Below, in pieces: positions 6,665 to 51,523 of a stretch of 64,000 nt of DNA. The stretch is from Cyanidioschyzon merolae (taxonomy: Eukaryota). Both the position numbers and the translations under genes were made by a program. How positions within the stretch are numbered: the first letter of the stretch is position 1; every line of letters starts with the position of its first letter. The notes beneath the pieces are model-generated. The model did no database searches. It saw only the letters and a program-made list of their open reading frames with translations, and had not been told where the DNA came from. The stretch lies in NCBI GenBank assembly GCA_000091205.1, contig AP006486.2. One strand, given 5' to 3'.

Positions 6665-9590
6665 CTCGTTCGACGCTCTCTCAGTCCAATAAATACGGAT
6701 ATTTGTTCTTTCTCGAGTGAATATATCTTCACTATTGTTTTTTCGATATGGTCAACACGAACGTAACCGCCGTGTGTTGTGAAAGCCAAAACAACAACGC
6801 ACAACGTGATAGCGCCAAAAGCGCGGAACGCGCGCGCACTGCAGAGGAATTTGAATTGGGGTCATCATGATGCGATGAAGAATTCACGTTGATGTCGAGA
6901 CTGGAGCGTAACGGACGTAGGGAATTCGGGGTTCATAGTCCGAAATATCCAAGTTGAGAGAGGTACTGAAAGCTATATATAGGCTAGTGGGATTTCATTG
7001 GAATGAGTAACTCCCGAGTACTGCTCCTTCCAGGTGCCAGTCAGCAGGGCTCAGCAGGTCACGGCTCTAGGTAAGAAGGATAGCGAATAACGAACTATCG
7101 GTTGCTGAGGTTCGTCCACCACCCGAAACGCAGAAGTATTCCTAATGCGATTCATCTATCTTAAGTTTTCGCAAGACGATTGTGGTGGAAGTATTCCGTG
7201 TTAGACTTATTGTGTTGCAGTCCTGTTCTCGTGGTGACAGCCAAGCTGAGTAGTTGGGAGGTTTATGTAGGTCTGTACCACTGGTATTTGTCTTAGATAA
7301 GAAACATCGAATAATGAGCTCCTGCGTGTCTATTGCGAGGAAAACTAAGAAATATTTCTCGCGTGGGAAGTGGTCTCTCTTTAGGGACAGGCTGTCGCCG
7401 TTCGAAGTGGAACGCATATACGCGTACCCATGCTTCGACCTTCAACCTACGAAGCGAGAATTCGTAGGTGTTTTCTTCATCTATCCTCGTACGGCCTAAG
7501 CTTGGAGACGTGTGTGTCAACCGCTTCTGGCAAGCCGGACACCAACAAGCATTTTCAAGGCTCGCGCAGACCGGTGGTCCGCGGAGGATGCTAGCCCAAT
7601 CGGAGACTTCATAACGTTTCATCAAGTTTTCCAACAAACGCTCCGTGGCGTCTGTTTTTACATCTGCTACCTGCAATCATTTTTCTGGTGCTACAAATAA
7701 CTCTATCTATTTGAGTGTCAGCCTCACGGTATCGCGCCTACCCCGTGGTTTCTCGGTACAGAACAATACCTAGTCTCGCATCTCGGAGTGGGAACTTATA
7801 TGGACTTCGGAAAGGCATTGGTCTGAATTGGTCTTTTGACAGCAGCCAAGAAAACGCCCGAAAGTCTGCGGATTCGTTAATCGAGATCGGATCATTCGTA
7901 AATGCTTGGTCGGAGTCGCATAATATGTAACAGCTTTTCCATGACGGTGCCTAGTATCATCAAAAATCATATTCCCGGTGGCGTCGTTCCGTGACTATTT
8001 TGGTGAGTAGCGGGCAATTTAGAGGTACCATATATACCTTTGGCGACCCGATAGTTTCCCCAGCAAGATCGAGGAAAGTCTCCTCATAGTTATCGAACCA
8101 ACAGCTAGACAGAGCGACCAAGTCGACAGACCAATTCTATCTCGAATTTCCGCCTCGCTCAGGAATTTATGCCAGCACTTGTCTCGCAGTGTGCTTTTCA
8201 TAAAGCACGTTCCCCGGAACGCATCCTATTTTCTTGAACTCTCTACCCAGATACCTCGCCCTGGATTCCCTGTTCTCTTTTATCGACGTACTCGCGCGAG
8301 ATACGCTCACCGGCTCTGTCAGTGAGCGAAGCCATGATCCATTCCTTGGGCCTCTCACACTGATCTGTGTCCGATAGGCTCGCTGCTACCGCTTCATCAG
8401 AGGTTATTTGGAGCTTCTCGCATGTGAAGGCGCACTCGGGAGTCAAGAGCTTCTTCATGCTACGATTCAGCCTCTGGAATATTATACGCAATCTAACCAG
8501 CAGACTGCTTGAGTGGTTCAGCTGCTTGCCCTGCTGTATTCTGTGTGGAACGAAAACAGAATCTCAGTCCGTTCTTGCACCATGATCTTCGCAAGTTGTC
8601 CCCGGCAGTAGATGATGAATGCCTGAAACATCCTTCTATTTAACAATTTACCTTCTCGGGAGAATCTGCCTCGATCCGTTTTAATCTGTAGAGATGGTGC
8701 ACCCTGCTTCCTCGTCATAATGGCGGTGTTCAAGCACGACCCACGTTGCTCTTCTTCAGCACTGCTTCCACTGTACACACGGGGAAGGCGCCGACGGACT
8801 TCATGCCACCTTCGTAGTCCAGCGCCTTCTCTCTCGACGCTCGGTTGCTGTCGTTCGGCTTTTGCAATCTACTGATATATCCTGAAACAGCATCCGGATG
8901 CTAAGACGCACTGGTGCAAAACAATGGACTACTCCGGAACTCGTAGTACCTGTCAATACTCGGAAGTTGCCGCTCATTTTTTCCATTGTACCCATGCAGC
9001 CATTTCTTTCCCCCGGAGACTCTGGTGCGATACATCCGTCTTACGCCCGGGAAGGATCACCGAATGCATGTCATATTATGCACCAGATCCCAAAATGAGC
9101 TCCAACAATAGATATCCCCAATTCTGAACACTTTATTCTGTATTCCAGGACAAATGCGCTCTCTGCAGTTGCAGCAAATGCGCTCTACTCCGATGACGAC
9201 CGCTTCCAGCATTCTCTGGTGCATTCAGTGCGTAGCAGTTCATAGCTATCACTAGATTAATCACTATTGCATTACGCATTATGACTTACGAAGCATTGTT
9301 CGCTCTTCAAAGCAGGAGGAGCGCCATCTCGCTCGCTCAATATCCGATCGGAACTGCCGCAGGCCACCTCCTTGGTACACCGTTGCTCCCACATCTGTCC
9401 TTGAAGCAGCGGTCTGCGCTCCGAAGGCGCATCTCATTTTCATCACTAATAAACCTTACACAGGGGCCAAGACAGTCGACTTGAGGCCTCGCCTCCGTAA
9501 CGCCTGGTCGATCAGATTAAGACTCAGTTCGTAAAGCTGATCTGCCTTGTCGATTGTGTACGTTGGTTCAATAACCTGCGGTTTCGTCTT

Positions 9591-10515
9591 CTATCCCCCA
9601 TCCGTATATTTGCCACGCCACTGATAATACGAGTCCGAGTCCGGGAACTGTCCCTGGGGCGCCACTTCGGCTACGCGGCGGCCGGCCTCATCATTCGGAA
9701 CGTATTGCCGAGTGATATACTTCTGAAGAATCGGGATGAATACGTAGCGGAACCAGCCAAGCTTTTCGCGGTAGAGGTTGCTATCGGCGACAGATCCCGG
9801 GAAAATCGCCACAGAGGTCACCCCGTCGCGGCCGTATCGATCACTGAGCGCCTTCATTGTCAACACGTTCTCGGCTTTGGCGTCTTTGTAGGCTTTTGTG
9901 GGCTCAAACGGACCACTGCCTACCATGCCAGTCGTCTGCGGATCAAGCCCCGCGCCTAGACCAGACAAATCGCCGAGGCGAGCCCGCGGGGGATCGTTCC
10001 CGGCAGCGAATTCGGCGAGTGGGTCTGAGTCGTCGGAACACAATGTGCCCGCGCGATACTTTCAGCTTCGGCAACAGCTCCCGACATAGAAGCAAATGGC
10101 TCAGATGGCATACCTGCATGGTTTCCTCGATGCCGTCCACCGTGAAACGCGGTTTCTTGTCCCGCGGATGCCAGATTGCGGCATTGCAGATCAGGGCATC
10201 CAGGTGATCGACGCGCGCCACACTTGACAGCTCTCTCACAAACTTTAGTACAGAGGCGAAATCAGCCTGACCACAACGGAGCACGGTATAGGCGTCCTTT
10301 AGAAGGTTCACGCTGTTTGCTGCGCGCTCCGCCCGGTCGACGTCACGACATGCCATGACGATGTGCCAGATGCACTTGTTGATCAGAGCGTGAGCTGCAT
10401 ACAGACCGACTCCAGAGCACGCGCCCGTGATCACGGCGATCTGCGACTGTTTCGGGCCATTACGAAGATGCAGCGCGTGGTGCCGGCGCGCTACAGGCGA
10501 ACGCTGCATTACCAA
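9591..10515 (-). pseudogene. POR: Light-dependent protochlorophyllide oxidoreductase (LPOR, SDR family). The body is split over two overlapping ORFs in different frames (9943..10515 and 9591..10043), i.e. a frameshift. The upstream presequence frame also contains an in-frame TAA.
   Basis: The N-part IAVITGACSGVGLYAA...WHIVMACRD...LICNAAIW matches plant POR (VITGASSGLGL...WHVIMACRD...LVCNAAVY). The C-part PRARLGDLSGLGAGL...AYKDAKAENVLTM...GVTSVAIFPGSVADSNLYREK...FIPILQKYITRQYVPNDEAGRRVAEV matches PKANLGDLRGLAGGL...AYKDSKVCNMLTM...[25 protein letters not shown]. The switch between frames falls within about 2 codons, which leaves no room for an intron. Confidence 0.6.
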
Positions 10516-12189
10516 AGGAAGAGGACGCTGGCGGTGGTGACGATGTCCAGCTGCGAAGCAACCGTCACGAGCGGTACCCAGTGCGAACGGTGCTCTGCGT
10601 ACAGCAGGTGAGCGAACTACTCTTTAGCCCTGGTACAGCGGATCAGAGACAAACATGCCTTGTACTTTCTTGGGTTAGGTCGTCTCCGTGCGAAAGCTGC
10701 CGATCACGTCATGGGCTAGAATCGATCGCGTAAGTGTGCGTATCCAGTCAAAAACCTGTTTTGCGTAGCTGCACGAGTGATCTTCCGTCGAGTGGTGCAG
10801 ATGCCAACCTCAATCTCCGTAGACTGTCTAACTTGGAGCACAACCCGCACAAGCGCTCAACGTCAATCTCAGAAACTAGGTTAAACTCGCAGTTTTCCGA
10901 GCAACAATCTCGTCAGTACTAGTCGCAATGCGTTCCGCAACGTTGAGTTCAAAGATCACAATGATCGTTGAGGAACGTCGCTGCAGCTCACCGATGAATA
11001 ACGTAGCGGAGGTACAAGAGACTAACATCCGGTGGTAGTTTTTTTGGAAGCGCCTGCACGTCAGTTGGACACGTTACGTCTAGGGCGGGTCACTCGCCAC
11101 TACTGTACACGGCCGACGACGATGTTTTTCTTTTCAAGGGCATGTGTAGTTGGTTGTGTCGCTTCCGGGCTCGCTGTACTGGTTAGGCTCTTGAATCTAA
11201 TCTTATAGAGTAGATCAGAATACAGTATGTGCTTTTGTCGGATGCCTCGATCGTTCAAGGCGAGATGCAATGCTCAAACGTCGTGGCAGATATAGATGCA
11301 ATATGTTAGCTACGCCTCTGCCAAGATCACCGGATCAATTGACGTAGCGGGGACCATAAGTTAGACAACGAAGCAGCATGGCAATGACCTGAGCTCTCAT
11401 CAGTACCAGCCCCTGACGCAGGAAAGAAGCACAATTCAGGCCAGTTCTTTATTCCGGTGTCCGTGCAGGATGCATAGCAAGCCTAGGGAATAAACTTATA
11501 TCCGTGTTCGAGAACACTACCGTACCTATTACGGTTACGACCAATACAACTGAAGAAACTCTTATTGAGTAGAGTGTTGCATATCTTATCCACACAAGTG
11601 CAAGCCGCAGAGGAAGATACGCGTGTGATAGAAGCATCGCGGGGTATCGTTCCAGGCCCCTGCATCCCCTTGTCTGGCAGGGCAGTGCTGCGATGGGCAG
11701 CAGCGTCGGCACCAGCGACATAACCTATAGCAAGAGTGCATTCTACGGGAGTTTCCAGTCTACGATACCTTATGTTTTGCGGCAGTGCGATGCGAACACG
11801 CATGTGCCAAGGCGGGGTGTCGGACACGTGTCCTTCATCGATCGGAGTAGCGTTTCGCGCAGTGCACGCATCGCGCTCGGTGAGTGCACCTCGGGGATCA
11901 GACAGACATGAGACACGACGCGCGTGCCGCTGTTCAAGGGAAACGTGATCTCGATCAGAAGCGTGTTGTTCAGCTGTAAAAAGTTGGATTTCCGTTGAGG
12001 ACATAGCAAAGTAGAGTTTTCCTTTCGTTTTTGTTCCGAAATTAAACCAGACTAGTCAAGTGTTTTTTCGCTGTATATAACAGAAGCGTTCAAAGAGCGT
12101 TCTTTTCAAAAAAAGGAAAGCTATCACAGAGCAAGTCCACGATCCTGGAGGCCCAGGTTCGCAGGCTGCCAGAAAAAGAACATAAAACG

Positions 12190-14330
12190 GTGTCGAGTCC
12201 CGAAGAAAAGGAAGAGAAGAAGGACCGAAAGCAGGAGGCCCTACGTCGAAGGCGGCAAGAAAGACGACTGTACGACGAGAATATGGTGAAAACTTTCTTT
12301 CTTGGACATATCAAGGATCCCTGTAGGGAAAAGTTGCGAGACGCCATTGAAAAACGTGTTGACTCGTACTCGAAGAGTATTGTAAAGACGTTTTCAGGAC
12401 TAATGCATTTGGCGAGGGAGATGTATCGCGACGTAACGCAAATGGAAACAGTCGATGTTCCTGACGCGTTCTTCGATAGGACATGTATTCGATACCTGAT
12501 GCTTGGCACAGCGGAAGCGCGGAGGGAAACTCAGCTAGTGTATGCCCTCCACGAAAAGTTCGCGGAATTCCGCTCCGAGGCTACCCGACACAGGGGTGAA
12601 TGTTGTATTTACGAATACATGGCAATGGGGTGCCTCACGAATGTGAGGAGCCTTAAGATCTTAAACGTCGTTTCGTTCATGATACGCGTTCTCTTTGCGC
12701 TCTACCCGTGCCTTTTTCGGGAAGGGATTCGAGGAACCATCGATGGTATCAAGAACGATTCCCAGCATGAACGGGATATGAACTTTGTTGAGAAGAGGAC
12801 ATCACGGTGGAGAAAGAACGAGGCTTCTGTTCTCCGCTCTACCATTTAAAGGCATCGTTCGGTCTTGGAGCTTGGCACCCCAAGAGAAACACTTTCAGAT
12901 ATGAGAAAAGAAGAGAGATGTTCCCCCCCTCATCCTGCCTCACTTCATGTTATTTGACCGAGAACTCCGACGGAAGGCCCAAATAGAGCTAAGTATGGAA
13001 AAAATGACGGGTGGGAGAAACGGCATTGAAGTGGTTTTCCAGAAGCGCTTCAATTTCGTTTTTTATGCGAGTTCAAGTCGCATTTTGTGATTATCGACTG
13101 TAGAGGCCTTTTACGACTTCATGAAGGAGATCTATTTAGAGCTCGATGTAATAAACCGAGAGGTCATCGGCGAAAACAGGGACACCGACTAGAAGATTAT
13201 TTTCGATATCACGTGTCTCGAACCGGCCAAAAAAGGTATTCCAGCGGACAATCGATTTCGATATTGTGTACATAAGTGTACATCAAATGCTGTTGCAGGC
13301 ACTTCATCCTATCCCGTCTTCGTTATCGCCCTTGCCGAAGCACGAAAACAAGAAGACGGGCCGCGAAACGCATAGTCCCCATGAAAACGGCTTTGTCGTC
13401 GGCCCTAGCCCCTGAAACACGAGTATCATGACCTTTGCTGTACCCAAGCGTGAGTGCGATGGCACTGACCGAAACTCACGTCAGAAAGACAGCAGGATTT
13501 TGGGGATCTCACGAGAGAAATACTACCAAGAAGCGGGAATCATGAATGCAAGCAAGAAAATTGAGACATGAAATGCAGGAATGAAGGATCTCCTGGAATC
13601 TTTGAGCGAGGTGACGAGCCGAGAAGCGGATTTTGAAGCTTCTCGGAAATTCATAGAAGGTTCGCGTTGCTCATTAGGAGGTACTGTGGAAAGAATATAC
13701 AATGCCCCGGTGGGCTCGAATGCGAATGAATCTGGACTGTGGTAAGCAGCGGGCATTTGCGAATTGTTTCAGCCAGTTGTGCCCTGGAGGAGGATCAGAG
13801 TCAGATGCTCATTGTAGCGTATGGGGCAGGGCGCTGGAAGACCCAAAAAAGGTTTACGCCAGCTCCATCGACAAGAACATATAAGGAGTGCGCAAGGCGA
13901 TTCGTTACGATATAAGTAGATGAGCTTCGAATGACCTATACACACCATAAAGTGGGGTGCACACTTCAGAGAGTGGAGATGGAAAAGTGCCAGCGGAGCC
14001 CTGGGGAAACAGCAAAGTACGGACAGCTGACGAAAGAGCAAATGGAAAGAAGAGCCAAGTTCGTGGACTAGTTGCATTAGTGAGTACAACCCGCAACGGC
14101 ACGAAACAGATAGAGTTTGGGGATCGAGACTTTAACGCCGCCATCAATGGAAGGAAATGCGCGGTGCTGGAGAAAAGACCTCCAAAGTGGACACGAGGGA
14201 TCTTTATTGGACAACCTCTCAGAGTCGAACTATATGAGAAAAAAATTGGAAGCAGTCGTGGGTGGCCGGTCGAGAAAGACTGAGATGCGTTTGCACGTCA
14301 GCTGGAGACTTCTTGTCTAGGGCGCCGGTC
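12190..14330 (+). mobile_element. Degraded TnpB/Fanzor-like (IS200/IS605 OrfB family) element relic. A KR-rich N-terminal ORF (12190..12849) is followed by broken frames and a C-terminal RuvC-III-like motif at 14119..14182.
   Basis: ORF 13957..14283 encodes ...KQIEFGDRDFNAAINGRKCAVLEKRP, matching the TnpB/Fanzor RuvC-III signature (D.NAA.NI..RG). A second paralogous relic lies at 49959..50960 with nucleotide identity 24/25 over cgagacNttaacgccgccatcaat. The region is an AT-richer island and the usual CxxC...CxxC zinc finger is absent, suggesting decay. Confidence 0.4.
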
Positions 14331-14439
14331 ACCACTACTGTACACCGCTGGCGGCTACAACGTTATTCTTTTCAAAGACGTTTGTTTCCAGGGATGAATA
14401 CTGAGCGTCCACAGCAGCACACCTCTCCTTCGAACGCGT

Positions 14440-17400
14440 CTAGTTCATGAAACCGACACAACCCGGCTCGCCGCATAGACATGGGATTTTCATCGCATTG
14501 TCTACGTCGAACATGTAGTTGTAGGTCAGCTCCTCGCCGCGTTTAATCGCTCGAGCGCTGCGAATAACAATCACATCCTGCTTCGGTTCGTCGCTGATTC
14601 GCAGGATTTCGCTGTAGCAATTCGGACGACAAGAATGGTTAATATAGCGTGCGACGCTCCCAATCATTGTCGCATCAATCACCCAATCAGCATCTATACG
14701 AAACATGTAGCACCCAATGCCACGGCGCTCGTAGTGGCGCTCCCGAACGTCGGCCACTGGTGAGGCAATCCGCTCTCCAGCGTACTCAACGATCATCTGA
14801 TCGGCTTGGAGGTCACAGCGCGCAAACAAACCGAACCCGTGGATTCGAGAGCGCAACGGAACACAGTACTTGCGGTGTTCGAGCTGCATCTGTCGATACA
14901 GCCGACGATCAGTTGCCGTTGCAGAGACTACTCGCCAGGCGTCTCGCCTTGGAGGCACACGATCCTGCTCTGGACGTGATCGCAGTGCGCTGCACGCCCG
15001 CTCTGCAGACCCCGGGATATCGGATGCAGCTGATCGCTGTGCAAGGAGCGGGTCATATGCTGCTCCCGCTAACGCACGCTCAAACACTTCCAGGGATCGA
15101 TGCACAGGTGCAAGCTTACTCCATTTTGACTCGTTACTCGGGCGCAAGTACAGGGAACAACGTGCTGCGCCCGCGGATCGCGCTGTCGGGGATGCACCTC
15201 CGACGTCGTGGTCCGGAGAGGTATCCGCGGGCACCGACGCCAACATGCTCGTGGCTAGGTGCTGCACCAGCACCGGCACAGGGCAAAAGAAGCGCTCCGC
15301 AAGTGCCTGACGTTCTTCTGTCGATCGTTCAGCGATGCACTTGGTGAAAAGATGCGTCAAGCGCGCCGGAAGACGCGCTGCCCACAACCGCAGCACACGG
15401 GATATCATCTGGTGCCATAGCGCAGTGATGCACACGCCACTTAACCGATCGTGCGGTGCATCCAGAGCGCACAGCGAGTACCGCGGCTCGTGCGCTACGT
15501 CCGCTGTGCAACTGATAAAGTAAAGCGTTCGTTCAAAGGGTCGGATCATACTCCAAAAGCGCCGCGCTAGGTAACAATCTGGCGGCAGTCGCCACTGAGC
15601 TTCTGTCGATTCCAGCGATGTGCAGTCCAGCGCACCGTAATCGAGCAGTGTCCAGGCACCGACTCGCAATGCTGGTCTCGCATTTAGCGACAAACCGCGT
15701 ACATCCGACGGCAAAGAGTGACCCATACTCGAAAAGGGAAAACTCCACCCCGAGGGTGCAAGTCCAGCTGTCGCCTCGCGACCAAGCAGCGAGCGATGCT
15801 TCCAACACCAGCACAGGCTGCGATGATCGGAGCATTCCCACATAGCATCAGCACCAGCAGCGTTAGCATGTGTCGCTACACAGCGTACGTGAAAGACTTG
15901 GGTACAGCCCAAAAAAGAGCAGAACACAGAGGCACCCGTACGACGACACACAGAACACTTTCTGGACAAGGCAGCTTGTATCGTGCGAGAAAGGCCGGCT
16001 CCCGTTTGCGTCGACAGCGCCAAACAGCCCATGTGAATCCAGCGCAGGGTGCTTTCGGAGAGTCGCAATGGCACCAGACATCCGAGCTGCGCGCTTTCAC
16101 CTCGCTCGGGGCAAGCACATAGCGCACAACGCCGACAATCGGGAACCGCACAGAGACGCGACCACACTAGGTGCTCTGCTTGTAACGCATCTGGTGTAGC
16201 ATGTGGCGCTTGAACCCCAAACGAGGCGGATACACGCTGGCCCAGCGGCCGGCAGACAGTGACTTCAGGCACTGGGTCACGAGTTCCGTATTGGCTTAGT
16301 GAGGTATCGTTCCCCATCAAACACACCGTGTTCTCCTGCACTCCAGTTTCTGCTTCACAATTCGCAAGCATCATGTGCGCATCGATATACACCGAGTTTT
16401 GCGAATGAAGATGTTCTGCTTCGAAGGAGTTTTCCTGCTTCATCACGAGCGGCGTCCGATCGGTGCCCTCTATCCGCGTACCTGAGGCCAAGTGCGAAGC
16501 GAACGCTCCGTCTTGCACGCTCGTCAAAGCGCACGCGCCCAATGGTAGCTGTGCCTCGCACGATACATCCCGCAACCGCGTTCCCGCGAGGCAGTCTCGT
16601 AAAGGGTCTGCGCACTCAGATTCCATAGCGTCCGCATTGCACGCTAGAAGAGGTGCCTCAGAGACACGCCCCTGGCCTGAGGAGCTGCTCACCTTCGGCG
16701 AACGTGAGCAAGCAGGGCCCGTTGCCGCCAGCGTACCGGGAACATGCTGTCGCTTGACCTGATCGCCAGGAAGCGTACTGGTTGCGTTCGAGGTTGCTGC
16801 TGCTGCTGCTGCTGCTGCTGCTTCACAATCACCGCAAAGCAGCAGTGGCATAGCACCGCCGTGGCCGCTATCCAGCCGCCGACCGCAGACAACGCACGGT
16901 ACGGACGAGAGCGTCAGCAGCCACGGAGGCTCCTGAACGGAACTTGGCTCACCACGCTGCAGAACTTGCATCGAATCCCGTTTCCATGCATTCGATTCTG
17001 AGGCATCCTGTCCCGTGTTCTTTGACGCAACGGCTGCATAGGTGCCCGCCTCCTGTTCGACACCGGCTCTGTACGAATTCCTCGGCAAAGGCAAAGCACG
17101 TCCAGGGGTATCCACCTCCGGATAAGGAACGCGCTCCGAGCCTCCGCCTCCGGTGATGCGTCGAGAAGCGGCAAAAGAAGCAGCGCCGGCAGCAGCGAAC
17201 GACACAGGTGGCCTGCGCTTCACAGCGCCAAACGCGGAGGAGTCAGGTACGGCCTCGTTATCCATACAGGGCGCTTGCATCGAGTGATCGACCTCCAGAG
17301 GCACCTCCGAGTCGTTATGCTCGGTTCCTGTGTTCCATAGAACCTGTTCGGACCGTTCTATACTGGATTCGGTTGGTGTTCCTTGACGATCCGCAGGGTG

Positions 17401-20172
17401 ACAGGATGATTCTGCTTCAGGTACAGATGGCAGTGGTATGGAGACGGCGCAGCTGGTACAATTCGGGATCACGCGAATCGGACCCAAGTCCAGCAGATGC
17501 AGCCGACCTGAAGACGACTCGTACTGCTGCTCTTGATGCTGGCATTCCGCGTGATACGCCTCGCCACAAAGCCAGCAAAAGAGCGCCGATGCGCCTGATT
17601 CGTCCACGGTGCCATGACACAGCGCGCAAACATCCCGCTCGAGCGGAATCAGAATTCGGCAAGGAATCAGCGGATCGACTTGAGGTTGAGGAGGTACTTC
17701 CCAGTCGAGCACACCCATCACCTGGGCGTTAGTCTGGTACTCGAGTTGTGCGCGCTCATCGTGGACAACGGAGCGATCATGGCAGCCTGAGTCGATGCGT
17801 TCGCTTGGCGTTCGACACGGTGCAACGAACAGACTACCCGGCTTGCCCGGGACGTTACTTTCGGAAGCAGTCACCTGAGAGCCTGCAGCTGGCGCCGTCT
17901 CTGTGGCAGCGGCCGCGGACAGCGACATCTGGACAAGACTGGTACCCTCGGATGGAGTAGATACTGTCATCAGAGCGTCTGCAGTGACAGCGGATACTCG
18001 CTTTGCCCTCTTGGTCCCATCCGGGCGTGAATGCAACCGAGAGCGTTCGAGTGCCTCCAGCGTGCGCTCCGCAAACGTTACCCAGGACAATGGCTCACAG
18101 TCACCGAACTGAAGCTCTCGTGTGAGCTCCCACAAGCGGTAATTCTCCTGCTCCGTAGTGGCCTCCGAGTGGTGACGACGCTTCCTTTGCCTGCCGGTCA
18201 CCGAATTGCGCTTACCAAGTGCATCATCACCGCGAAACTGAACCTGGGCAACAACACTGCCTCGAGGTGTCTGCAGTGCAGTATCCTGCGGAACCTGCCG
18301 GGAAGCGCGCTCCCCGTTTGCTGATTCCCCTCTGCCGAAACGTACACCGCCGTGCTGCTGCAGTTTTCTCGAAAAGTTTAGCCGCATCACAGCGCTTACC
18401 TGGGACGCTCCAGTCTCCTGCCCCACTGAGTGGCCGCCTTGTCTAGAGGAGAGCGCGTTTTTGGAGTCCCCGGAAGCGCCGCCACCAGCACCGGAAGGAC
18501 CGGTGTGCGTCGCCACCTCACGATCGTACACCTCGACGGGTACCGAACAACGCGAGACATTCCTCGACTGCCCTGTACGAGCGCCGTAACTCGGTTCAAC
18601 GGTACACTCGGACGCGCATGAGGCTCGAAGCTCCGCAAAATCCTTCACAGCGCTTTCGTTCGATGCAGCGGGACTGCTGGTCAGCGCAGATGCCAAGTGA
18701 GCTCGCTCCGGCGATGTTACAGCATCTTGTTGCTGCAAGCGTCGACGAGAAGCTGTATTGACAAGGTGCGTATCCGGACAAGCGTCCGGACGGCGTTTCC
18801 TGGACTTTGTGGGTCGTCTCGCTCGCACAGGGACCGTTTCAATCGCCAAAAATGGACTGTGGAGCTGGAGATCAGAGCGCTTACCACCATCTCCACCACT
18901 GCGAGGTTGTTTGTCGGGATTGTATGTGGCCAGAGGGCGAAGTCGCTCGCCCTGGTGTTCCATGTTCGCAGGCGAGACTTCCGGGACACGCTGGACAAGA
19001 GCGGCGTCAGTTTGTATTTTCTTCATAATCAAGCGCTTTCTCTTGGTGCTCGCATCGTCACAAGTGTTTTGCTGCATCAGCGGCGTCTGTGAATACCAAC
19101 TAGCAGGCGCAGCTAGCGAGCCAATGATATGAGAAACCTCCCGGCATACGCGAGACTTGCGCTGCGGGTGCCTCTTCCATGCAGGTCCACGGTTTGCTGG
19201 AGACGGCACTGCTGGCGTCGCGGTTGCCAGTCCGGTATGGCGGTGGCGGTATTGCTTCCGCCCGGTTGCTGTTTGAACAGCGTGCCCGGTATCCATGCCG
19301 TGCTCATTGTACACCTGCAAAGCGTCACGGCTATCGTTGTGCTCGATTTGCTTCCAATCGCGGGCACCAGACTGTCGTCCGCGACTTGTCCATGAATGCG
19401 TAGACACTGCTTGAGCATTCTCGACACCTGCTGCTCCGTTGCCGCGCTTCAAGCGCCGCTGCGACGGCGCTCTACGAGCGCTTCGCTCAGAAGACGCTTT
19501 GGTTGATTCTGGGGGTGCACTTGCCGTTTCATCCCGACGTTTTGCAGCCAGATGCTGTCGATCCTTTGCAGTGGACACGCTCGCATCAATGCATCCATTC
19601 GGGGATGCGTCTCTTCGAACAGCACGGCCCTTGACAGCCTCTAACTGAACCAGCAGATTAGCGCTGGCCGGCACATCGAGCGTGGCAAGCTCCGAGCCCC
19701 TAAAAAAGCCACATTCCTCAGCGTCCTTCCGGTGAAGACAACAAAAAACCTGTCGTCGTCGCTTACACACAGCAGCACCAACTTTCAGTGCACAGCGCAG
19801 GTGGTAGTACGTCCAGCAGGTTCTCGGACTGCGGTAAGCGCAGGTGATGGTCCCACCAGGTTGTCCACAAACACTGCAGCGAATCGAGTTGCCCCGACGC
19901 ACGACAGAGCCCACCAGGAGCTCATCGATTTCGTTTCGACCCTGACACTCGGCACTGAAGCGCACACACTCTTCATGTACATAAATAGGTTTCTTTGCTG
20001 GTGGTTTGGGTTTCAGTGGCCCCAGTAACTTACCTTCTATACCGCTTGCGTCCTGGTCTAGGCCGCACAGTGCACAGCGTACGCTATCCGCAACGTGCGC
20101 TCCATCCTTCCGTCGACGAGGATTCGCCGGTAACAACTCAGACTTTGACCTTGGACAGAGGCGTCGTGGCAT
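14440..20172 (-). CDS. Histone-lysine N-methyltransferase of the KMT2 (SET1/MLL/Trithorax-like) type: several PHD and extended-PHD fingers, and a C-terminal SET plus post-SET domain
   Basis: The C-terminus ...GIGCYMFRIDADWVIDATMIGSVARYINHSCRPNCYSEI...RGEELTYNYMFD...IPCLCGEPGCVGFMN carries the SET motifs NHSC and ELTYNY and a post-SET CxCxxxxC. PHD-like fingers include CALCHGTVDESGASALFCWLCGEAYHAEC and CSVCGQPGGTITCAYRSPRTCWTYYHLRCA. The ORF is 1938 aa with the track start at TTG 20256; the first in-frame ATG is at 20172. It contains a (GCT)n/poly-Gln tract near 16794-16822. Confidence 0.8.
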   Translation of the reverse strand: MPRRLCPRSKSELLPANPRRRKDGAHVADSVRCALCGLDQDASGIEGKLLGPLKPKPPAKKPIYVHEECVRFSAECQGRNEIDELLVGSVVRRGNSIRCSVCGQPGGTITCAYRSPRTCWTYYHLRCALKVGAAVCKRRRQVFCCLHRKDAEECGFFRGSELATLDVPASANLLVQLEAVKGRAVRRDASPNGCIDASVSTAKDRQHLAAKRRDETASAPPESTKASSERSARRAPSQRRLKRGNGAAGVENAQAVSTHSWTSRGRQSGARDWKQIEHNDSRDALQVYNEHGMDTGHAVQTATGRKQYRHRHTGLATATPAVPSPANRGPAWKRHPQRKSRVCREVSHIIGSLAAPASWYSQTPLMQQNTCDDASTKRKRLIMKKIQTDAALVQRVPEVSPANMEHQGERLRPLATYNPDKQPRSGGDGGKRSDLQLHSPFLAIETVPVRARRPTKSRKRRPDACPDTHLVNTASRRRLQQQDAVTSPERAHLASALTSSPAASNESAVKDFAELRASCASECTVEPSYGARTGQSRNVSRCSVPVEVYDREVATHTGPSGAGGGASGDSKNALSSRQGGHSVGQETGASQVSAVMRLNFSRKLQQHGGVRFGRGESANGERASRQVPQDTALQTPRGSVVAQVQFRGDDALGKRNSVTGRQRKRRHHSEATTEQENYRLWELTRELQFGDCEPLSWVTFAERTLEALERSRLHSRPDGTKRAKRVSAVTADALMTVSTPSEGTSLVQMSLSAAAATETAPAAGSQVTASESNVPGKPGSLFVAPCRTPSERIDSGCHDRSVVHDERAQLEYQTNAQVMGVLDWEVPPQPQVDPLIPCRILIPLERDVCALCHGTVDESGASALFCWLCGEAYHAECQHQEQQYESSSGRLHLLDLGPIRVIPNCTSCAVSIPLPSVPEAESSCHPADRQGTPTESSIERSEQVLWNTGTEHNDSEVPLEVDHSMQAPCMDNEAVPDSSAFGAVKRRPPVSFAAAGAASFAASRRITGGGGSERVPYPEVDTPGRALPLPRNSYRAGVEQEAGTYAAVASKNTGQDASESNAWKRDSMQVLQRGEPSSVQEPPWLLTLSSVPCVVCGRRLDSGHGGAMPLLLCGDCEAAAAAAAAATSNATSTLPGDQVKRQHVPGTLAATGPACSRSPKVSSSSGQGRVSEAPLLACNADAMESECADPLRDCLAGTRLRDVSCEAQLPLGACALTSVQDGAFASHLASGTRIEGTDRTPLVMKQENSFEAEHLHSQNSVYIDAHMMLANCEAETGVQENTVCLMGNDTSLSQYGTRDPVPEVTVCRPLGQRVSASFGVQAPHATPDALQAEHLVWSRLCAVPDCRRCALCACPERGESAQLGCLVPLRLSESTLRWIHMGCLALSTQTGAGLSRTIQAALSRKCSVCRRTGASVFCSFLGCTQVFHVRCVATHANAAGADAMWECSDHRSLCWCWKHRSLLGREATAGLAPSGWSFPFSSMGHSLPSDVRGLSLNARPALRVGAWTLLDYGALDCTSLESTEAQWRLPPDCYLARRFWSMIRPFERTLYFISCTADVAHEPRYSLCALDAPHDRLSGVCITALWHQMISRVLRLWAARLPARLTHLFTKCIAERSTEERQALAERFFCPVPVLVQHLATSMLASVPADTSPDHDVGGASPTARSAGAARCSLYLRPSNESKWSKLAPVHRSLEVFERALAGAAYDPLLAQRSAASDIPGSAERACSALRSRPEQDRVPPRRDAWRVVSATATDRRLYRQMQLEHRKYCVPLRSRIHGFGLFARCDLQADQMIVEYAGERIASPVADVRERHYERRGIGCYMFRIDADWVIDATMIGSVARYINHSCRPNCYSEILRISDEPKQDVIVIRSARAIKRGEELTYNYMFDVDNAMKIPCLCGEPGCVGFMN

Positions 20173-20699
20173 CGACGCCAGCACAAGTGCTAGCGTCAAT
20201 TGCGGACTTCGCTTCCTCCCGACACGTTTAGGTACAAGTAGCCAACTACCTGACAACAGCGAGACCTAGAGTTTAACGAAAACGCAGCACACGTCAACTC
20301 CAGTGGACTCAACTGCGCTCTAAGTACCGAGCGATACCAACAGACCTGCACTTGATCAGGTCCTCCCTGTATACCACCAAAGTCTGGAGGTTTTCCCCAG
20401 ACCAAACGACACCACGACAACCCGTAGAGGCGAATAGCGCGCGCAAAGCCTTTCTTGCCGCTTCGTACTCGGCAGTGCGGCGCCAAAAGGGTACGCGCTG
20501 AACCTGCAACTGCGTCGCCTTTGCTGGGCAGCGATATATGCGCTTTGCCCAGCTTTTGGCACTGGACAGGTCTCCGGGCACGCTGTTTTGCAGTTCAAGG
20601 GCCAACATCGGCACGGACGCTGTGCAACAGCGGCACTTGGGGCCTAACGCTGTCCTCCCGTGACTGGCACGACCCCGGACTGGTTTGCGCTTTTCGAAG

Positions 20700-29100: not shown

Positions 29101-30056
29101 AAGTGCAATACCGCAGTTCCGGGCTGGCAGACGTAAACTACGACATGTCGAAGAACGGCGTCTAGGATACGAACGAACCTTCCATAGGTCCATGACCGTA
29201 GAGTTGGCGTTCGGCATCAGAGAAGACGCCATCGACTGGATTCAACGAGGAGATATGTGCCGGCACCAAGAGCAGTGCAACGCGAAGCGCAGCAGTGTGC
29301 TCCACGACTTCTGTTGCATGATGATAAGCGACGTTGTCATCGACCAGAACAGAGGAATGTGAGATGGAGAATCTCCAACGTGCTTCACTAAAAATATGCG
29401 ATATTGGATGACCCTGTACGAATGGACATTTCGAGGCGACCACAGCACTGCATCGTCGCAGAGTCTGACGTTCACTTCAGGCTCACCTGTCCCCTATTTG
29501 CGAACAGCGGTTTGCCGCTCTTCGGGTACCCATATATTACAGATGTGCCAATTGCTCCTGAATGAAGTCTCACTGGGTGATAGGACCACCCGTCTTTTCT
29601 ACGATAAGCGTTCGCGTTTTGGTTCGAACTTCATTGTGTATTGCCCAATGCAAGACGATCTCCGACACCTGCGCACTTTTTGCGTAGTCCAGTGATGTCT
29701 CTTCATCACTGTTCGTATTAACAGCATGGAAGCATCGCGTCTGGACATTCCTTTGATATTTTTCAATGACCATTCCGACTGAAGTGGATTGACGGGGTCA
29801 TCGCGCAGATAGACGATGATAAGCGCTGTTCTGGGTACACGACGAGCGCCACTTGGACTAGGTGAAGCGTGGTTCACCCACCTGCTGACCACAGAATAAC
29901 TGAGTTGTTGTGAGATGCAGATCCTGCATCGCAACCCAGCACAAGGTGCCGATGTCTTACCGCGGGCATTCACCAACCCACAGGATACATGCCTTTTATT
30001 GAATACCTGAGAAAAATCAACCGAAACGAAAAGCGCGTGCTGGTACAGATGGCCCA

Positions 30057-30226
30057 GAATTCACTGCTCTTCATATTACACGGTCACTAGAATGCGACCA
30101 GGTTGCACGTACCACAGAAAATGCAGCAACGTACGCTGCCAGAATTCACTGCTCTTCATATTACACGGTCACTAGAATGCGACCAGGTTGCACGTACCAC
30201 AGAAAATGCAGCAACGTATGCTGCCT
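30057..30226. repeat. Two tandem copies of an 85-bp unit (98% identical) just 3' of the WD40 gene
   Basis: gaattcactgctcttcatattacacggtcactagaatgcgaccaggttgcacgtaccacagaaaatgcagcaacgta(c/t)gctgcc occurs at 30057-30141 and 30142-30226. Confidence 0.85.
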
Positions 30227-33400: not shown

Positions 33401-33654
33401 GCATCGTTCGCCGGCGCACGCATGACGCGATGCGTGCACTCCTTTGCAGTCGGCGATGATGATGATAACAACGATGATGATGATAACAATGACGATAACA
33501 ACGATGATGATGATAACAATGACGATAACGATGATGATGATAACAATGACGATAACGATGGTGATGATAACGATGGTGATGATAACGATGATGATGATAA
33601 CGATGGTGATGATAACGATGGTGATGGTAACGATGATGCTACAAGGACATCCAT
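30493..33654 (-). CDS. WD40 beta-propeller protein with a long Ser/Ala/Gly-rich low-complexity N-terminal half. Motif resemblance to WDR20/DMR-N9 family, unverified.
   Basis: WD-repeat signatures WSPDGQFIAAGGEDDTFTIWR, GHSSFVTSVCW and LATVGQDARLCIWELD; the last resembles WDR20 ...VGQDTQLCLWDL. The N-terminal ~100 codons overlap a minisatellite, so the true start is uncertain. Confidence 0.6.
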   Translation of the reverse strand: MDVLVASSLPSPSLSSPSLSSSSLSSPSLSSPSLSSLLSSSSLSSLLSSSSLLSSLLSSSSLLSSSSPTAKECTHRVMRAPANDACIASRTHPVRAPGGANAHRTAAASSRSTVREVPVGAAAGAAHQGSPPGSSTTTGQGLNSCLSSWRPGTGSRPVRARSSVPADSRESSFTSVPDDTRSAPPKRTSATMNAGKKLEGSASPDVQENASSVPSVSGLSEYYPGSPAAALTSPRKVLRKSIHVPGLEAFELRTEWYGERLYATEPRERADLTAERAPVVVNGKRTASAGSAAGSAGSETRSMLSRLTSFAASGASIMGLGGHQSQNSAAASSPQSTQLVGGGSTGSSPAAAGELQSTSPLGGFLSIGSSVISRRVNYGWGARGTQVSMILIPHAILSMMLMNAYVENASVMAAYRRTFSADSELLASTALAGSGSDVNGRRATVASQVAATSADALRSLTPPPSAVGGNGRERRGLFSRRRASSVRLSDGGSSAGNGPLARIGDATAPEASTEGKAQSRSLIAPELMTLDLERVSCETADMRAGQLEHLAAPNAVPSRSMMSWLNRWTGTSRDKAQTHPSSPALSEGGDAYAAAPSEACEVRADICPDRRTVTTSAGGRTSSLPSTGDCAAVDKRLPGDLVPLLLLNFRDQVFIIQGDTSGRVLQKFRFRVLPTCHTLSLSAAEDTVLAIIGFANGEVLVHRDPLRTLDGGYDCIALPSSLASVAEQTKQVMVMALAVTSSRDRLITARGNGSILVHSLPQGLGPDKYHTSLLAQIPSHAGITSISVHENLLACTSRDGMLHVLALPSLDWPVLAETSANLPSATWIAQARSHYGAFLCMAWSPDGQFIAAGGEDDTFTIWRAPRSPCEEMRCLVRGRGHSSFVTSVCWLPALELELDGYASSSLSGQGWSSEDAAPAAFYRLATVGQDARLCIWELDLNALPSPRKTRRGLVVPEIEPAVRQTIHHDGLTCVRLASLSNRMVLVTADESGAVRLWEMVATAAAAATASPKSSLDAGERCLSWSEKNGNAAGSPGSPTQRIEYLLSIREKHW
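33450..33650. repeat. Minisatellite of 15/30-bp units (gatgatgataacaatgacgataac...), open in three frames at the WD40 gene 5' end
   Basis: Direct reading. It encodes (DDDNN)n on the plus strand, (SLSSP)n in the WD40 frame and (IVIIT)n in a second minus-strand frame. Confidence 0.7.
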
Positions 33655-49958: not shown

Positions 49959-50960
49959 GTGTGTCTCTTTTTTCCAATAGCTAGTTCACTTGGTCCTGAG
50001 GACACTGGGATACAGTCGCAAAAAAATATTCTAGTTCACGCACAGCCATCTTCCACTGTAATCGAAATCCCCACAGCTTTCCGGGAACGTCGAGATCGAT
50101 ATGAAGCACAGGAGCGTCGACTTGTTTTCTATGCCGATGGGCCCTTTTTCCGGAAGAAACCGTCGGAGCGTATATGGGTATGCGCATAGAAGACGTCCGT
50201 GGTGTGTATGATCGAACTCAAAGAGAACGAGGATATCAACACCAGTTCTAGCTGCATTGGAGTCATTCTGCGGCCTCAGTTTCGCTCGCAGAGAAGGATC
50301 ATACGAAAGCAACCACTTTGCCGAATCATTGAAGACTTTTTTTCAAGACGTCTGGTGACTTTCTTCTTTTACGCAACGTGGTATTCCACCATTCTTCTCG
50401 CGTTCCTGCTTTTGAAGATTCTATCAGGATAGAGATGCTTTTCATTCCAGCGTTCTCTTCGTGGTCCAACATCATTGAAGGAGCATTTTCTATCCTGAGA
50501 AGTAATGATCGCTTCTCTAGGCGAGTCGCTGAATCTTTAAGCCCATTCGTATACCGGGACACGTTTGGTCTTTCTTGCGCAAGCACTTCTCCATCTGGGA
50601 AGCGCCTCACCTAAGGCCATAAAAAAGTGCGTTCATTTGCAGATATAAAAAATTTAAGCAATGAGCTGGGGTCTACACTTCAGAGCGTCAAGATGGAGAG
50701 AAGGCAGCGGATCATTGCGGCAACAGAAAAGCTCAGAGAGCTGACAGAGCCGGATTTGGCAATGAGGGCACGCATCCTAGCAGTCCCCACTATGCTGCGT
50801 TCAACCAGAGGCGATAAACGCATGAAATTCGTGAACCGAGACGTTAACGCCGCCATCAATTTCAGGAGATCTGCAGTGCTGAAGACGAGACCTGCGGAAA
50901 TTACGTGAATCAACTTTTTGGGACACCCTCTCAGATCCGAGGTGTGCAGGGAGAAACTGA
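49959..50960 (+). mobile_element. Second degraded TnpB/Fanzor-like relic: four consecutive plus-strand ORFs in shifting frames ending with the RuvC-III-like motif (50825..50890) and a conserved tail
   Basis: ORF 50627..50908 ends ...TMLRSTRGDKRMKFVNRDVNAAINFRRSAVLKTRPAEIT, paralogous to 13957..14283. Similarity continues past the stop into the next frame (INFLGHPLRSEV vs GIFIGQPLRVEL). The region is an AT-richer island. Confidence 0.45.
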
Positions 50961-51523
50961 AACCGATAGCAGGGGGCCTGTCGAAACAGACGGGGAGGCA
51001 TCTGTGATTGCATACTCATTTACCGTCCATAGATGTGAACCGTTGTTCGCTTCACTGGAACATAGTCCAGAACGCGGGCGAACACGTGAAAGTGCGCTGC
51101 CTCATCTAGTTGTCATGAACATGAGCGTCTGTGAGATTTCTCTGGACTGCTTCCTTCCCAGCTGGGTCATTTCCGGGACTGGATACGCTGGTGCTTCGTG
51201 TCCCGCCAGCTACGATGTCAGCGCTAGCGTGACGATTACGCAGTTCCCCGCAATTGCAGACGCATTTCGTTACCAGGCAGAGGTTGTGATCTATGCTTCG
51301 CTTCTCACTTTCGTCTACTTTGTAAAAAGCCTCAATGCGCCTTTCGCAACGATGCCACCTGACTCAGGTCGATTGTTCCCAAACGTTCACGCCAACTCCA
51401 CTGCCAGGCGGTGCACTGTGGCGAGTGACGGCTTGCTTCAGGACCCAGAACATCTCAGAGGCGGATACAAAAGGCTTCTCTCGATAGTCTCCCCGGCTCC
51501 GGGTCCAATGCCTTACTCCATGA

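What the first reader, a model, noticed from the sequence alone, without database searches (positions are those of the whole stretch)
14110..14330. Conserved 3' tail shared by both TnpB-like relics extends past the stop codon - candidate omega-RNA / right-end scaffold
Between 14110-14330 and 50820-50960, similarity continues beyond the copy-2 stop codon and across a frame change (…RPAEIT* then INFLGHPLRSEV, vs …RPPKWTRGIFIGQPLRVEL). The conservation is therefore at nucleotide rather than protein level. In IS200/605 and Fanzor elements the guide (omega) RNA scaffold overlaps the 3' end of the nuclease ORF and the right element end. A nucleotide-conserved tail is what such a scaffold would look like.
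Basis: inference. Interest (0 to 1): 0.55.

Follow-up and report, generated by a model that had tools for sequence, protein, structure and literature searches.

The report
Coding tail of dead Fanzor genes
The shared "tail" is the decayed protein-coding end of two dead Fanzor1 (eukaryotic TnpB-like) nuclease genes, not a guide RNA; the only plausible guide-RNA scaffold is a short structured stretch just downstream, and only copy 1 has it.

Summary
The similarity is real: 14125-14223 vs 50837-50935 is 74% identical (E 2e-9). The reading of it is wrong. Copy 2 has no frame change. Its "stop" (TGA 50905-50907) is an in-frame nonsense mutation of a near-invariant Arg codon (CGA in copy 1, 14194-14196). 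The only frameshift is a 1-nt insertion in an A-run of copy 1.

Relatives found in metagenomes read straight through the tail to an ancestral stop at 14318-14320. Third codon positions vary 1.3-2.6 times more than first and second positions across the tail. Synonymous sites are not unusually conserved, and no RNA structure signal appears in 14110-14300. The protein family is Fanzor1 (profile hits to solved Fanzor1 structures, E 2.8e-20).

Family homology does continue about 65-75 nt past the true stop (14321 to about 14390) and ends sharply there. This module holds two small hairpins, an invariant ACUACUGUA stretch and a long terminal hairpin. It matches experimentally defined Fanzor1 omega-RNA scaffolds in position, size and architecture. 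Covariation support is thin.

A second, ORF-less copy of the module lies at 11039-11166. Copy 2 lacks it. Both relics are dead. This is an ordinary new member of a known kind.

The parts
12110..14320 (+). Copy 1: decayed Fanzor1 ORF with many stops and frameshifts. The RuvC-I Asp is lost (GADPGNTN has become GPSP*NTS).
   Evidence: tblastn of the best-preserved family ORF (L010, 778 aa) maps to 12110-14211 in several frames. The family profile hits solved Fanzor1 structures.
14110..14320 (+). C-terminal coding tail of copy 1, from RuvC-III (DRDFNAAIN) through RPPKWTR to the ancestral stop. This is the flagged region.
   Evidence: Relatives read ...RPPELTRENFIGQPLKVELYEKKLEAVVGGRSKKAGRRLHVSWRLL*. 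The codon-position diversity ratio is 2.56, 1.34 and 1.58 across the tail. No consensus structure was found. Folding z-scores are -1.33 and +1.27.
14194..14196 (+). CGA Arg codon of the conserved RPxxLxR motif. The homologous codon in copy 2 is the TGA.
   Evidence: R680 is at least 90% conserved among 62 diverse family members and aligns to the C-terminal RPxxFSR of PpFz1 and SpuFz1.
14239..14245 (+). A-run carrying a 1-nt insertion, the only frameshift in the tail.
   Evidence: Alignment A3 shows GAGAAAAAAATTGG here against GAG-AAAAAGTTGG in relatives. tblastn splits into two frames here.
14318..14320 (+). Ancestral stop codon (TAG) of the Fanzor1 ORF, sitting in the 3' arm of hairpin H1.
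14276..14404 (+). 3' module of copy 1 (covariance-model match). It is the candidate omega-RNA scaffold and right end. Its parts are: alternative helix H0 (5' arm at about 14284-14292, pairing with 14306-14314); H1 AGAC 14306-14309 / GTCT 14315-14318; H2 14321-14333; single-stranded ACTACTGTAC 14334-14343; a long terminal hairpin 14344 to about 14392 with its inner hairpin at 14359-14382. Conservation ends at about 14382-14390.
   Evidence: nhmmer E 4.7e-27. CM R1 scores 94 bits, E 2.3e-27. Information content drops after GGCGTT. Named structure: 76.8% of cells paired against 32-52% for slid controls. This copy is decayed, with z -1.73.
11039..11166 (+). Second, ORF-less copy of the 3' module (solo module). 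It begins at about 11046, at the 5' arm of H0, and is followed directly by the 5' region of copy 1.
   Evidence: blastn 11047-11137 vs 14284-14375 at 75%, E 2e-9. nhmmer E 1.5e-24. CM R1 scores 87 bits. It folds into H1 + H2 + long hairpin with z -2.41. The same arrangement occurs in L022, L028/L046, L052 and L073.
50661..51004 (+). Copy 2: a fragment of a divergent Fanzor1 subfamily, truncated at both ends (about 115 codons, from near RuvC-III to about 9 codons before the ancestral stop). It has no 3' module.
   Evidence: blastn to the loci covers only 50661-51004. The closest matches are L048 5403-5617 and L049 at 75%. tblastn 50822-51004 covers q1-61 in one frame. There is no CM hit.
50905..50907 (+). 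In-frame nonsense codon TGA (from CGA Arg). This is the "copy-2 stop" of the finding.

Best explanation
SHOWN. Both regions are dead relics of Fanzor1 genes, the eukaryotic relatives of the TnpB RNA-guided nuclease. Copy 2 acquired an in-frame CGA>TGA nonsense mutation, and copy 1 acquired a 1-nt frameshift. This makes the homology look as if it runs past the ORF.

SHOWN. The real non-coding conserved end of this element family lies downstream: about 65-75 nt from the true stop (14321) to about 14385-14390. It may be joined by the last 20-40 nt of the ORF.

INFERRED. In active ancestors this module was most likely transcribed with or after the Fanzor mRNA and processed into the omega-RNA scaffold. 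The scaffold would comprise a small stop-codon hairpin, a GC hairpin, a single-stranded ACUACUGUA stretch and a long terminal stem-loop. The guide would be the unique flank immediately 3' of the element end, as shown experimentally for other Fanzor1 systems. In this window everything is decayed and non-functional.
For: Coding nature of the tail:
- Relatives read through it.
- One-frame tblastn runs through the TGA.
- The third-position excess is 2.56, 1.34 and 1.58 across the tail, and pos3 diversity (0.23-0.26) equals that of the rest of the ORF.
- The RPxxLxR motif is conserved across 62 diverse members and aligns with the C-termini of PpFz1 and SpuFz1.

Fanzor1 identity:
- Profile vs PDB gives 9cf0 at E 2.8e-20, 8gkh at 1.4e-12 and 9cer at 2.8e-6.
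- 28 of 62 members hit PF07282.

No RNA signal in the coding tail.

Post-stop module:
- 68 distinct family 3' ends stay alignable about 70 nt past the stop, then diverge.
- Hairpins pair in 77% of cells against 32-52% in slid controls.
- On the CM-fitted alignment, 90 cells changed on both sides against 54.8+-5.6 (0/500 shuffles).
- The loop-closing pair of H2 is GC in 25 sequences and CG in 18.
- The terminal hairpin is kept in two different registers and sequences.
- G.U pairs exceed A.C 167:38 and 67:37 in the terminal stem.
- The best copies fold with z of -3 to -4.3.

Literature:
- The GtFz1 omega-RNA overlaps the last 17 codons (PMC10432273).
- fRNAs come from the 3' non-coding region abutting the right end (PMC10530073).
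- Published SpuFz1 omega-RNAs fold as a small 5' hairpin plus a longer 3' stem-loop ending at the guide. This is the same layout as here.
Against: - RNAalifold predicts no consensus pairs on the unbiased 61-sequence alignment. On 25 sequences of one variant it predicts only the terminal hairpin, with a covariation term near 0.
- On the MAFFT alignment the covariation measures barely exceed shuffles.
- The outer part of the long stem (H3) is only 56-60% paired and no better than a +1 slide.
- Post-stop nucleotide diversity (0.23-0.36) is no lower than at synonymous sites.
- There is no Rfam match and no significant sequence similarity to published Fanzor1 omega-RNAs.
- No RNA data are available.
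- No copy with an intact ORF was found among 68 distinct family 3' ends.
- The same hairpins could act at the DNA level.
Confidence: 0.8

Rival explanations
1. The omega-RNA scaffold extends well into the ORF and covers 14110-14330, as in bacterial ISDra2 TnpB. On this view the tail similarity between the two relics is RNA-level conservation.
For: In TnpB and GtFz1 the omega-RNA does overlap the 3' end of the ORF (PMC10432273). Helix H0 (about 14284-14292 with 14306-14314) pairs in 81% of cells against 44-64% for slid controls. A short overlap of 20-40 nt is therefore possible. Protein constraint is weaker in the last 40 codons.
Against: Synonymous diversity is not reduced in the tail. RNAalifold gives only -3.5 kcal/mol with no convincing helices over 14110-14300. 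Folding z-scores are -1.33 and +1.27. H0 shows no covariation above shuffles. Copy 2 ends before the module and gives no CM hit. The supposed frame change does not exist.
Confidence: 0.07
2. The post-stop module is a DNA-level or mRNA-level element rather than a guide-RNA scaffold. It could be a single-strand hairpin end recognised by a transposase acting in trans (HUH/Helitron/IS605-like, or the 3' recognition stem of a copy mechanism). Alternatively it could be a 3' UTR or terminator structure.
For: - The 3' end is sharp, while the 5' ends are ragged or belong to several unrelated "heads".
- There are no terminal inverted repeats.
- There is no transposase inside the unit.
- The terminal hairpin is followed by a short TG-rich run.
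- Fanzors are known passengers of Helitron and other transposons (PMC10288648, PMC10530073).
- The G.U excess fits top-strand ssDNA as well as RNA.
Against: There is no Helitron CTRR terminus and no RT, Rep or Y1 ORF in the unit. The position, size and two-hairpin layout match experimentally defined Fanzor1 omega-RNAs (PMC10432273). In OMEGA systems the transposon end and the scaffold are the same DNA, so this rival is not exclusive.
Confidence: 0.25
3. The similarity is chance or low-complexity, or reflects a recent local duplication of the ORF end.
For: None beyond the modest pairwise identity (67-74%).
Against: E is 2e-9 in the self-comparison. Both copies match a family of hundreds of relatives (one search found 398 relatives; one search found 1455 cluster representatives). 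The two copies belong to different subfamilies, and copy 2 is closest to L048/L049. They are old independent insertions, not a recent duplication.
Confidence: 0.01

Closest known systems
Fanzor1 elements with a 3' omega-RNA (Spizellomyces punctatus SpuFz1 / Spu-1 elements; Parasitella parasitica PpFz1; Guillardia theta GtFz1)
   Same: - The protein family profile matches their solved structures, including the RuvC-III NRDxNAAxNI motif and the C-terminal RPxxFSR motif.
[quoted passage not shown]
- The layout is a small hairpin, a linker and a longer 3' stem-loop ending where the flank becomes unique. The SpuFz1 scaffold is 75 nt plus a 14-15 nt guide (PMC10432273; folds).
- ORF-less copies of the module exist, comparable to the S. 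punctatus "ghost loci" and the extra fRNA copies in Chlamydomonas (PMC10432273, PMC10530073).
   Different: - No 30-nt terminal inverted repeats were found.
- The ORF carries a family-specific extension of about 41 codons beyond RPxxLxR.
- There is no detectable sequence similarity to published omega-RNAs.
- 5' regions are modular or truncated.
- All copies seen, including both in the window, are pseudogenes.
- RNA expression is untested.
Bacterial IS200/IS605 TnpB with omega-RNA (e.g. ISDra2)
   Same: An RNA-guided RuvC nuclease gene whose guide-RNA scaffold derives from the 3' end of the gene and the transposon right end. The guide is the flank.
   Different: In ISDra2 the scaffold overlaps a long stretch of the ORF, whereas here no RNA signal is seen in the coding tail. 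There is no TnpA and the host is eukaryotic. The protein matches Fanzor1 structures rather than TnpB at the sequence level.
Mariner/Tc1-associated Fanzor1 (Bao & Jurka 2013, cited from my own knowledge; association statistics in PMC10530073)
   Same: The copy-2 fragment lies directly downstream of a repeat whose translation gives a weak DDE_3 hit (PF13358, E 0.0045). The pair recurs in L013.
   Different: The hit is below Pfam's threshold. No TIRs were defined. The fragment is truncated at both ends.

Membership tests
Fanzor1 (protein family) | Sequence or profile homology to experimentally characterised Fanzor1 nucleases | tested here: met
   A profile of 62 diverse relatives hits PpFz1 9cf0 (E 2.8e-20), SpuFz1 8gkh (1.4e-12) and GtFz1 9cer (2.8e-6). 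28 of 62 members hit PF07282 Cas12f1-like TNB. Window copy 1 is 60-64% identical to the close family.
Fanzor1 (protein family) | Conserved RuvC motifs (DPG..., DEFRT..., NRDxNAAxN) | tested here: met
   Family alignment A4 has D421 and E592 invariant and D658 at least 90% conserved. In the window, copy 1 keeps VDELRMT and DRDFNAAIN but has lost the RuvC-I Asp (GPSP*), and copy 2 keeps only NRDVNAAIN. Both are therefore inactive relics.
Fanzor1 (protein family) | Predicted fold matching TnpB/Fanzor | tested here: inconclusive
   AlphaFold2 on the shallow 10-sequence alignment gave pLDDT 31.7 and was unusable. No fold search was run.
Omega-RNA / fRNA of a Fanzor element | Conserved non-coding sequence between the ORF end and the transposon right end, followed by a variable flank (guide) | tested here: met
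   68 distinct 3' ends are conserved to about 65-75 nt past the stop and then diverge. Information content drops after GGCGTT at window 14382. This holds for copy 1 and for the solo module at 11039-11166. It does not hold for copy 2.
Omega-RNA / fRNA of a Fanzor element | Conserved secondary structure supported by covariation | tested here: inconclusive
   Named helices pair in 77% of cells against 32-52% for slid controls. The fitted alignment exceeds all shuffles. H2 has a GC/CG swap of 25:18. However, RNAalifold finds 0 pairs on the full MAFFT alignment and only the terminal hairpin on a subset, with no covariation term. H3 is not better than a +1 slide.
Omega-RNA / fRNA of a Fanzor element | Transcribed, processed and bound by the nuclease | not testable with these tools
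   No RNA-seq or biochemical data are available, and the host organism is unidentified.
Omega-RNA / fRNA of a Fanzor element | Homology to a described RNA family or to published Fanzor1 omega-RNAs | tested here: not met
   Rfam 15 gives no match at E<=10 for 13900-14500. Local alignment to the published Spu, Pp and Gt omega-RNAs gives z of -1.6 to 3.1, which is inconsistent. This lowers the claim of homology to those RNAs, not the claim of the same role.
   The frame is the same. The third-position excess is 1.3-2.6. pos3 diversity equals that of the rest of the ORF. There is no structure signal.
Helitron / IS200-IS605-type single-strand transposon end | 3' subterminal hairpin plus a defined terminus (CTRR for Helitrons) and an HUH transposase | tested here: not met
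   A 3' hairpin is present, but the ends read ...GGCGTT(T)G plus a TG-rich run, not CTRR. There is no Rep or Y1 ORF in the 3.2-kb unit. A partner acting in trans cannot be excluded.
Spu-1-like Fanzor transposon | About 30-nt terminal inverted repeats flanking the Fanzor gene | tested here: not met
   No consistent inverted repeats between the element ends were found in four full loci. 5' regions differ between subfamilies.

The most novel reading that the evidence does not exclude
The 3' module may not be only a guide-RNA scaffold. It may be the cis-acting end of a 3'-anchored copying mechanism: a strand-specific hairpin recognised on single-stranded DNA or RNA. This would explain why this TIR-less Fanzor1 family has one sharp 3' end, many 5' truncation points, several unrelated 5' "heads" and an ORF-less solo module. 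If so, it would be a Fanzor1 lineage that spreads without the cut-and-paste transposons Fanzors usually ride in.
Probability: 0.1. Interest if true: 0.6.

Novelty: new member of a known kind. Interest (0 to 1): 0.2.

Why it matters
The result matters mainly as a correction. A stop codon in a pseudogene is not the end of the ancestral ORF, so homology that runs past it is not evidence for an RNA element.

The follow-up does place two dead relics in a large, apparently undescribed Fanzor1 family. The metagenome scan found 398 relatives, and there are 1455 cluster representatives in the wider family. The family carries a compact 3' module of about 70-100 nt with the position and layout of known Fanzor1 omega-RNAs. 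If an intact or reconstructed member were active, the module would give a testable scaffold for a new Fanzor1 editor. The TIR-less, 3'-anchored copy pattern would then bear on how Fanzor elements move. For this window itself, nothing functional remains.

Tried and rejected
- Pfam on the window relics alone gave no hit. A PDB search with the shallow close-family profile gave only a spurious angiogenin hit. Both were resolved by building a diverse profile.
- AlphaFold2 on the 10-sequence alignment failed with pLDDT 32, so no fold search was run.
- RNAalifold over the whole tail plus module gave a weak structure of -3.5 kcal/mol.
- RNAalifold on the 61-sequence module alignment gave 0 pairs. On the 25-sequence subset it gave only the terminal hairpin.
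- The long-range helix H3 on the MAFFT alignment was no better than a +1 slide. A duplex-energy test gave only modest support: self -11.1 vs non-self -10.0 kcal/mol, p 0.03.
- The Rfam scan found nothing.
- A search for terminal inverted repeats found none.
- A candidate left-end motif (TTTTTC..GACAAAACGTTT) in one \"head\" subfamily also occurs inside the ORF, so I did not accept it as an end.
- I considered synteny as the explanation for the long upstream matches (9030-12400). I rejected it because nothing matches downstream of 14400.
- Pairwise codon-position counts between the two window copies (14/11/18) were uninformative. The family-wide analysis was used instead.
- An exact-protein look-up to identify the host failed. 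A literature search for Fanzor in cyanidiophyte red algae, my guess at the host, found nothing. The host stays unidentified.
Full report
CONTEXT. The window is an intron-poor eukaryotic nuclear region. Pfam finds a SET-domain ORF at 14440-20256(-), a kelch/trefoil protein, V-ATPase subunit D, a LepA/GUF1-like GTPase, coatomer epsilon and others. The flagged interval 14110-14330 lies at the 3' end of a stop- and frameshift-ridden ORF relic (copy 1, about 12110-14320, + strand). Its partner 50820-50960 lies in a short relic (copy 2, 50661-51004, + strand).

The stated frame change is not there. Copy 2 reads ...NRDVNAAINFRRSAVLKTRPAEIT*INFLGHPLRSEVCREKLKPIAGGLSKQTGRHL in a single frame. One tblastn HSP spans 50822-51004 through the TGA. 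The TGA (50905-50907) aligns with CGA (14194-14196) in copy 1, so it is a simple CGA>TGA nonsense change.

The only frameshift is in copy 1: one extra A in the run 14239-14245. After it the ancestral frame continues as KKLEAVVGGRSRKTEMRLHVSWRLLV* to TAG 14318-14320.

WHAT THE TAIL IS. A protein search with the reconstructed copy-1 sequence found 138 relatives at 50-70% identity. All that reach the C-terminus read ...RPPELTRENFIGQPLKVELYEKKLEAVVGGRSKKAGRRLHVSWRLL*. A metagenome scan found 398 encoding loci, of which 80 were fetched.

Across 44 distinct copies, nucleotide diversity at third codon positions exceeds that at positions 1 and 2 throughout the ORF. This includes the tail. The ratios are 2.56 (MEFVNRD... 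block), 1.34 and 1.58, falling to about 1 only in the last nine codons. Third-position diversity in the tail (0.23-0.26) is the same as elsewhere in the ORF, so there is no synonymous-site suppression of the kind an overlapping RNA would cause.

RNAalifold on 46 sequences over 14110-14405 gives only -3.5 kcal/mol with no convincing helices in the coding part. The window segments 14110-14200 and 14201-14300 fold no better than shuffles (z -1.33 and +1.27).

Copy 2's homology to every relative stops at or before 51004, about 27 nt before the ancestral stop. The shared tail is therefore entirely ancestral coding sequence.

WHICH FAMILY. Pfam and PDB searches with the close family alone were negative, and AlphaFold2 on the shallow alignment failed. 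An exhaustive profile search then found 1455 cluster representatives. A profile of 62 diverse full-length members hits solved Fanzor1 structures: Parasitella 9cf0 (E 2.8e-20), Spizellomyces 8gkh (1.4e-12) and Guillardia 9cer (2.8e-6). 28 of 62 members hit PF07282.

The alignments run to the C-terminal motif RPxxF/LxR, where PpFz1 and SpuFz1 end. The Arg of that motif is at least 90% conserved in the family and is the very codon mutated to TGA in copy 2. This family carries about 41 further codons, under weaker protein constraint.

Copy 1 has lost the RuvC-I Asp (GPSP* in place of GADPGN). No copy with an intact ORF was found among the 68 distinct family 3' ends examined; the longest open stretches are 778 and 772 aa.

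WHAT LIES BEYOND THE TRUE STOP. Aligning 68 distinct family 3' ends shows homology continuing about 65-75 nt past the stop and then breaking into unrelated flanks. Information content falls after GGCGTT (window 14382), with a weak TG bias to about 14390.

An nhmmer profile and a covariance model of this module hit the window exactly twice. One hit is 14276-14404. The other is an ORF-less copy at 11039-11166. Neither hits copy 2.

The anatomy of the module is as follows:
- H1: AGAC/GTCT, with the stop codon in its 3' arm.
- H0: an alternative helix, GGCGTCT pairing with AGACGTT. It is 81% paired but shows no covariation.
- H2: a GC hairpin, GGCG(G/C)...(C/G)CGCC.
- A nearly invariant ACTACTGTAC stretch.
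- A long terminal hairpin whose inner palindrome exists in two registers, CGTTCGA-CTT-TCGAACG or CGTTTTTC-TTTT-GAAAGACG. Its outer arms pair the segment after ACTACTGTAC with the TG-rich terminus.

HOW STRONG IS THE STRUCTURE EVIDENCE? On the MAFFT alignment the named helices pair in 76.8% of cells against 32-52% when partners are slid. The covariation measures exceed shuffles only modestly. H2's loop-closing pair is GC in 25 sequences and CG in 18.

On the model-fitted alignment, which leans towards the structure, 90 cells changed on both sides against 54.8+-5.6, with 0/500 shuffles reaching that value. G.U pairs outnumber A.C 167:38 and 67:37 in the terminal stem, so the fold is specific to the sense strand. 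Well-preserved copies fold with z of -3 to -4.3 into the same layout. The window's own copy 1 module is decayed (z -1.73), and the solo module gives z -2.41.

Against this, RNAalifold predicts nothing on the 61-sequence alignment. On a 25-sequence subset it predicts only the terminal hairpin, with no covariation term. The outer stem is no better than a +1 slide. Post-stop diversity is about that of synonymous sites. I therefore treat the hairpins as real and conserved, and the covariation support as thin.

COMPARISON WITH WHAT IS KNOWN. [quoted passage not shown] In GtFz1 it overlaps the last 17 codons. S. punctatus also has ORF-less \"ghost\" loci carrying the scaffold region (PMC10432273). 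Other Fanzors co-purify with RNAs from the 3' non-coding region abutting the right end, and Chlamydomonas has about 20 extra fRNA copies (PMC10530073).

The published SpuFz1 RNAs fold as a small 5' hairpin, a linker and a longer 3' stem-loop ending at the guide. This is the same layout, size and position as the module here. There is no sequence similarity to them and no Rfam match.

The best-supported mechanism is that, in active ancestors, the module was the omega-RNA scaffold and right end, with the guide being the flank beyond about 14390. This is an inference by analogy, and I rate it about 0.5-0.6 on its own. A purely DNA-level role as a single-strand transposon end cannot be excluded. 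In OMEGA systems that is the same DNA anyway.

ELEMENT ARCHITECTURE. The common unit runs from window ~11868 to ~14390. It comprises a 250-nt leader, an ORF starting at ~12110 and the 3' module. Upstream of ~11868, subfamilies carry at least four unrelated \"heads\". Within the window-type head there are many different 5' end points. Deletion derivatives keep a head plus the tail. No terminal inverted repeats were found and there is no transposase inside the unit.

Five loci match the window continuously from 9030 through the solo module into copy 1. None matches downstream of 14400, so this is a repeated composite and not synteny. How the family moved is unexplained.

VERDICT. The flagged similarity is the decayed coding end of two dead Fanzor1 genes. 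A candidate omega-RNA/right-end module does exist for copy 1 and as a solo copy at 11039-11166. It lies mostly outside the flagged coordinates, is absent from copy 2 and is non-functional here. This is a new member of a known kind and of low interest.

Noticed in passing
window 11039-11166 (+): An ORF-less solo copy of the Fanzor 3' module. It begins at about 11046, at the 5' arm of helix H0, and is followed directly by the 5' region of copy 1. The same solo-module-plus-element arrangement is conserved in loci L022, L028/L046, L052 and L073. It resembles the "ghost" or standalone omega-RNA loci reported for other Fanzors.
   Followed up: partly
window 9030-11045; ORFs 9594-10515 (-): This region is repeated (76-87% identity) in the same five loci upstream of the solo module. 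It holds a split short-chain dehydrogenase fragment (PF00106, E 4e-15). It may be a captured gene fragment inside a larger composite repeat. Its upstream limit is unknown because the loci end there.
   Followed up: partly
window 49661-50653 (+), directly upstream of copy 2: Another repeat (69% to L013 7116-8111; also L015 318-1). Its frameshifted translation gives a weak DDE_3 hit (PF13358, E 0.0045, below threshold), with an FIPAFSSWSNIIEGAFSILR stretch matching that profile. It is probably a Tc1/mariner/IS630-like transposase relic next to the Fanzor fragment. The pair recurs in L013.
   Followed up: partly
L012 ~2142-2283 and L041 ~2123-2259: A copy-2-type Fanzor C-terminal fragment (EKLKPIAGGPS...) sits immediately 5' of a main-type element. 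The two subfamilies are therefore repeatedly found head-to-tail.
   Followed up: no
window 58589-59613 and 62976-64000: A 1025-bp direct repeat at 98% identity flanks the LepA/GUF1-like ORF (59992-62313). The second copy runs to the window end.
   Followed up: no
window 30054-30225; 33454-33638; 35138-35352 vs 40781-40995: There is an 86-bp tandem duplication at 99% identity, and a second short tandem at 81% inside or near the 1053-aa WD40 ORF. A 215-bp dispersed repeat pair at 69% was also seen.
   Followed up: no
family ORFs, e.g. L010 3074-5407; window ~13280-13400: The Fanzor ORF carries a variable number of acidic repeats of about 23 aa (KHEEKKEAGPATQEVEDNDLVV) immediately N-terminal of RuvC-I. 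Copy number differs between copies.
   Followed up: no
window 14390-14440: The right end of copy 1 lies only about 50 nt from the stop codon of the convergent 1938-aa SET-domain ORF (14440-20256, -). The element is therefore inserted in that gene's 3' flank.
   Followed up: no
loci L002-L081, region equivalent to window ~11243-11930: Family copies share one sharp 3' end. They carry at least four unrelated 5' "heads" joined near window 11868, and many distinct 5' end points. No terminal inverted repeats were found. The mode of mobility is unexplained.
   Followed up: partly
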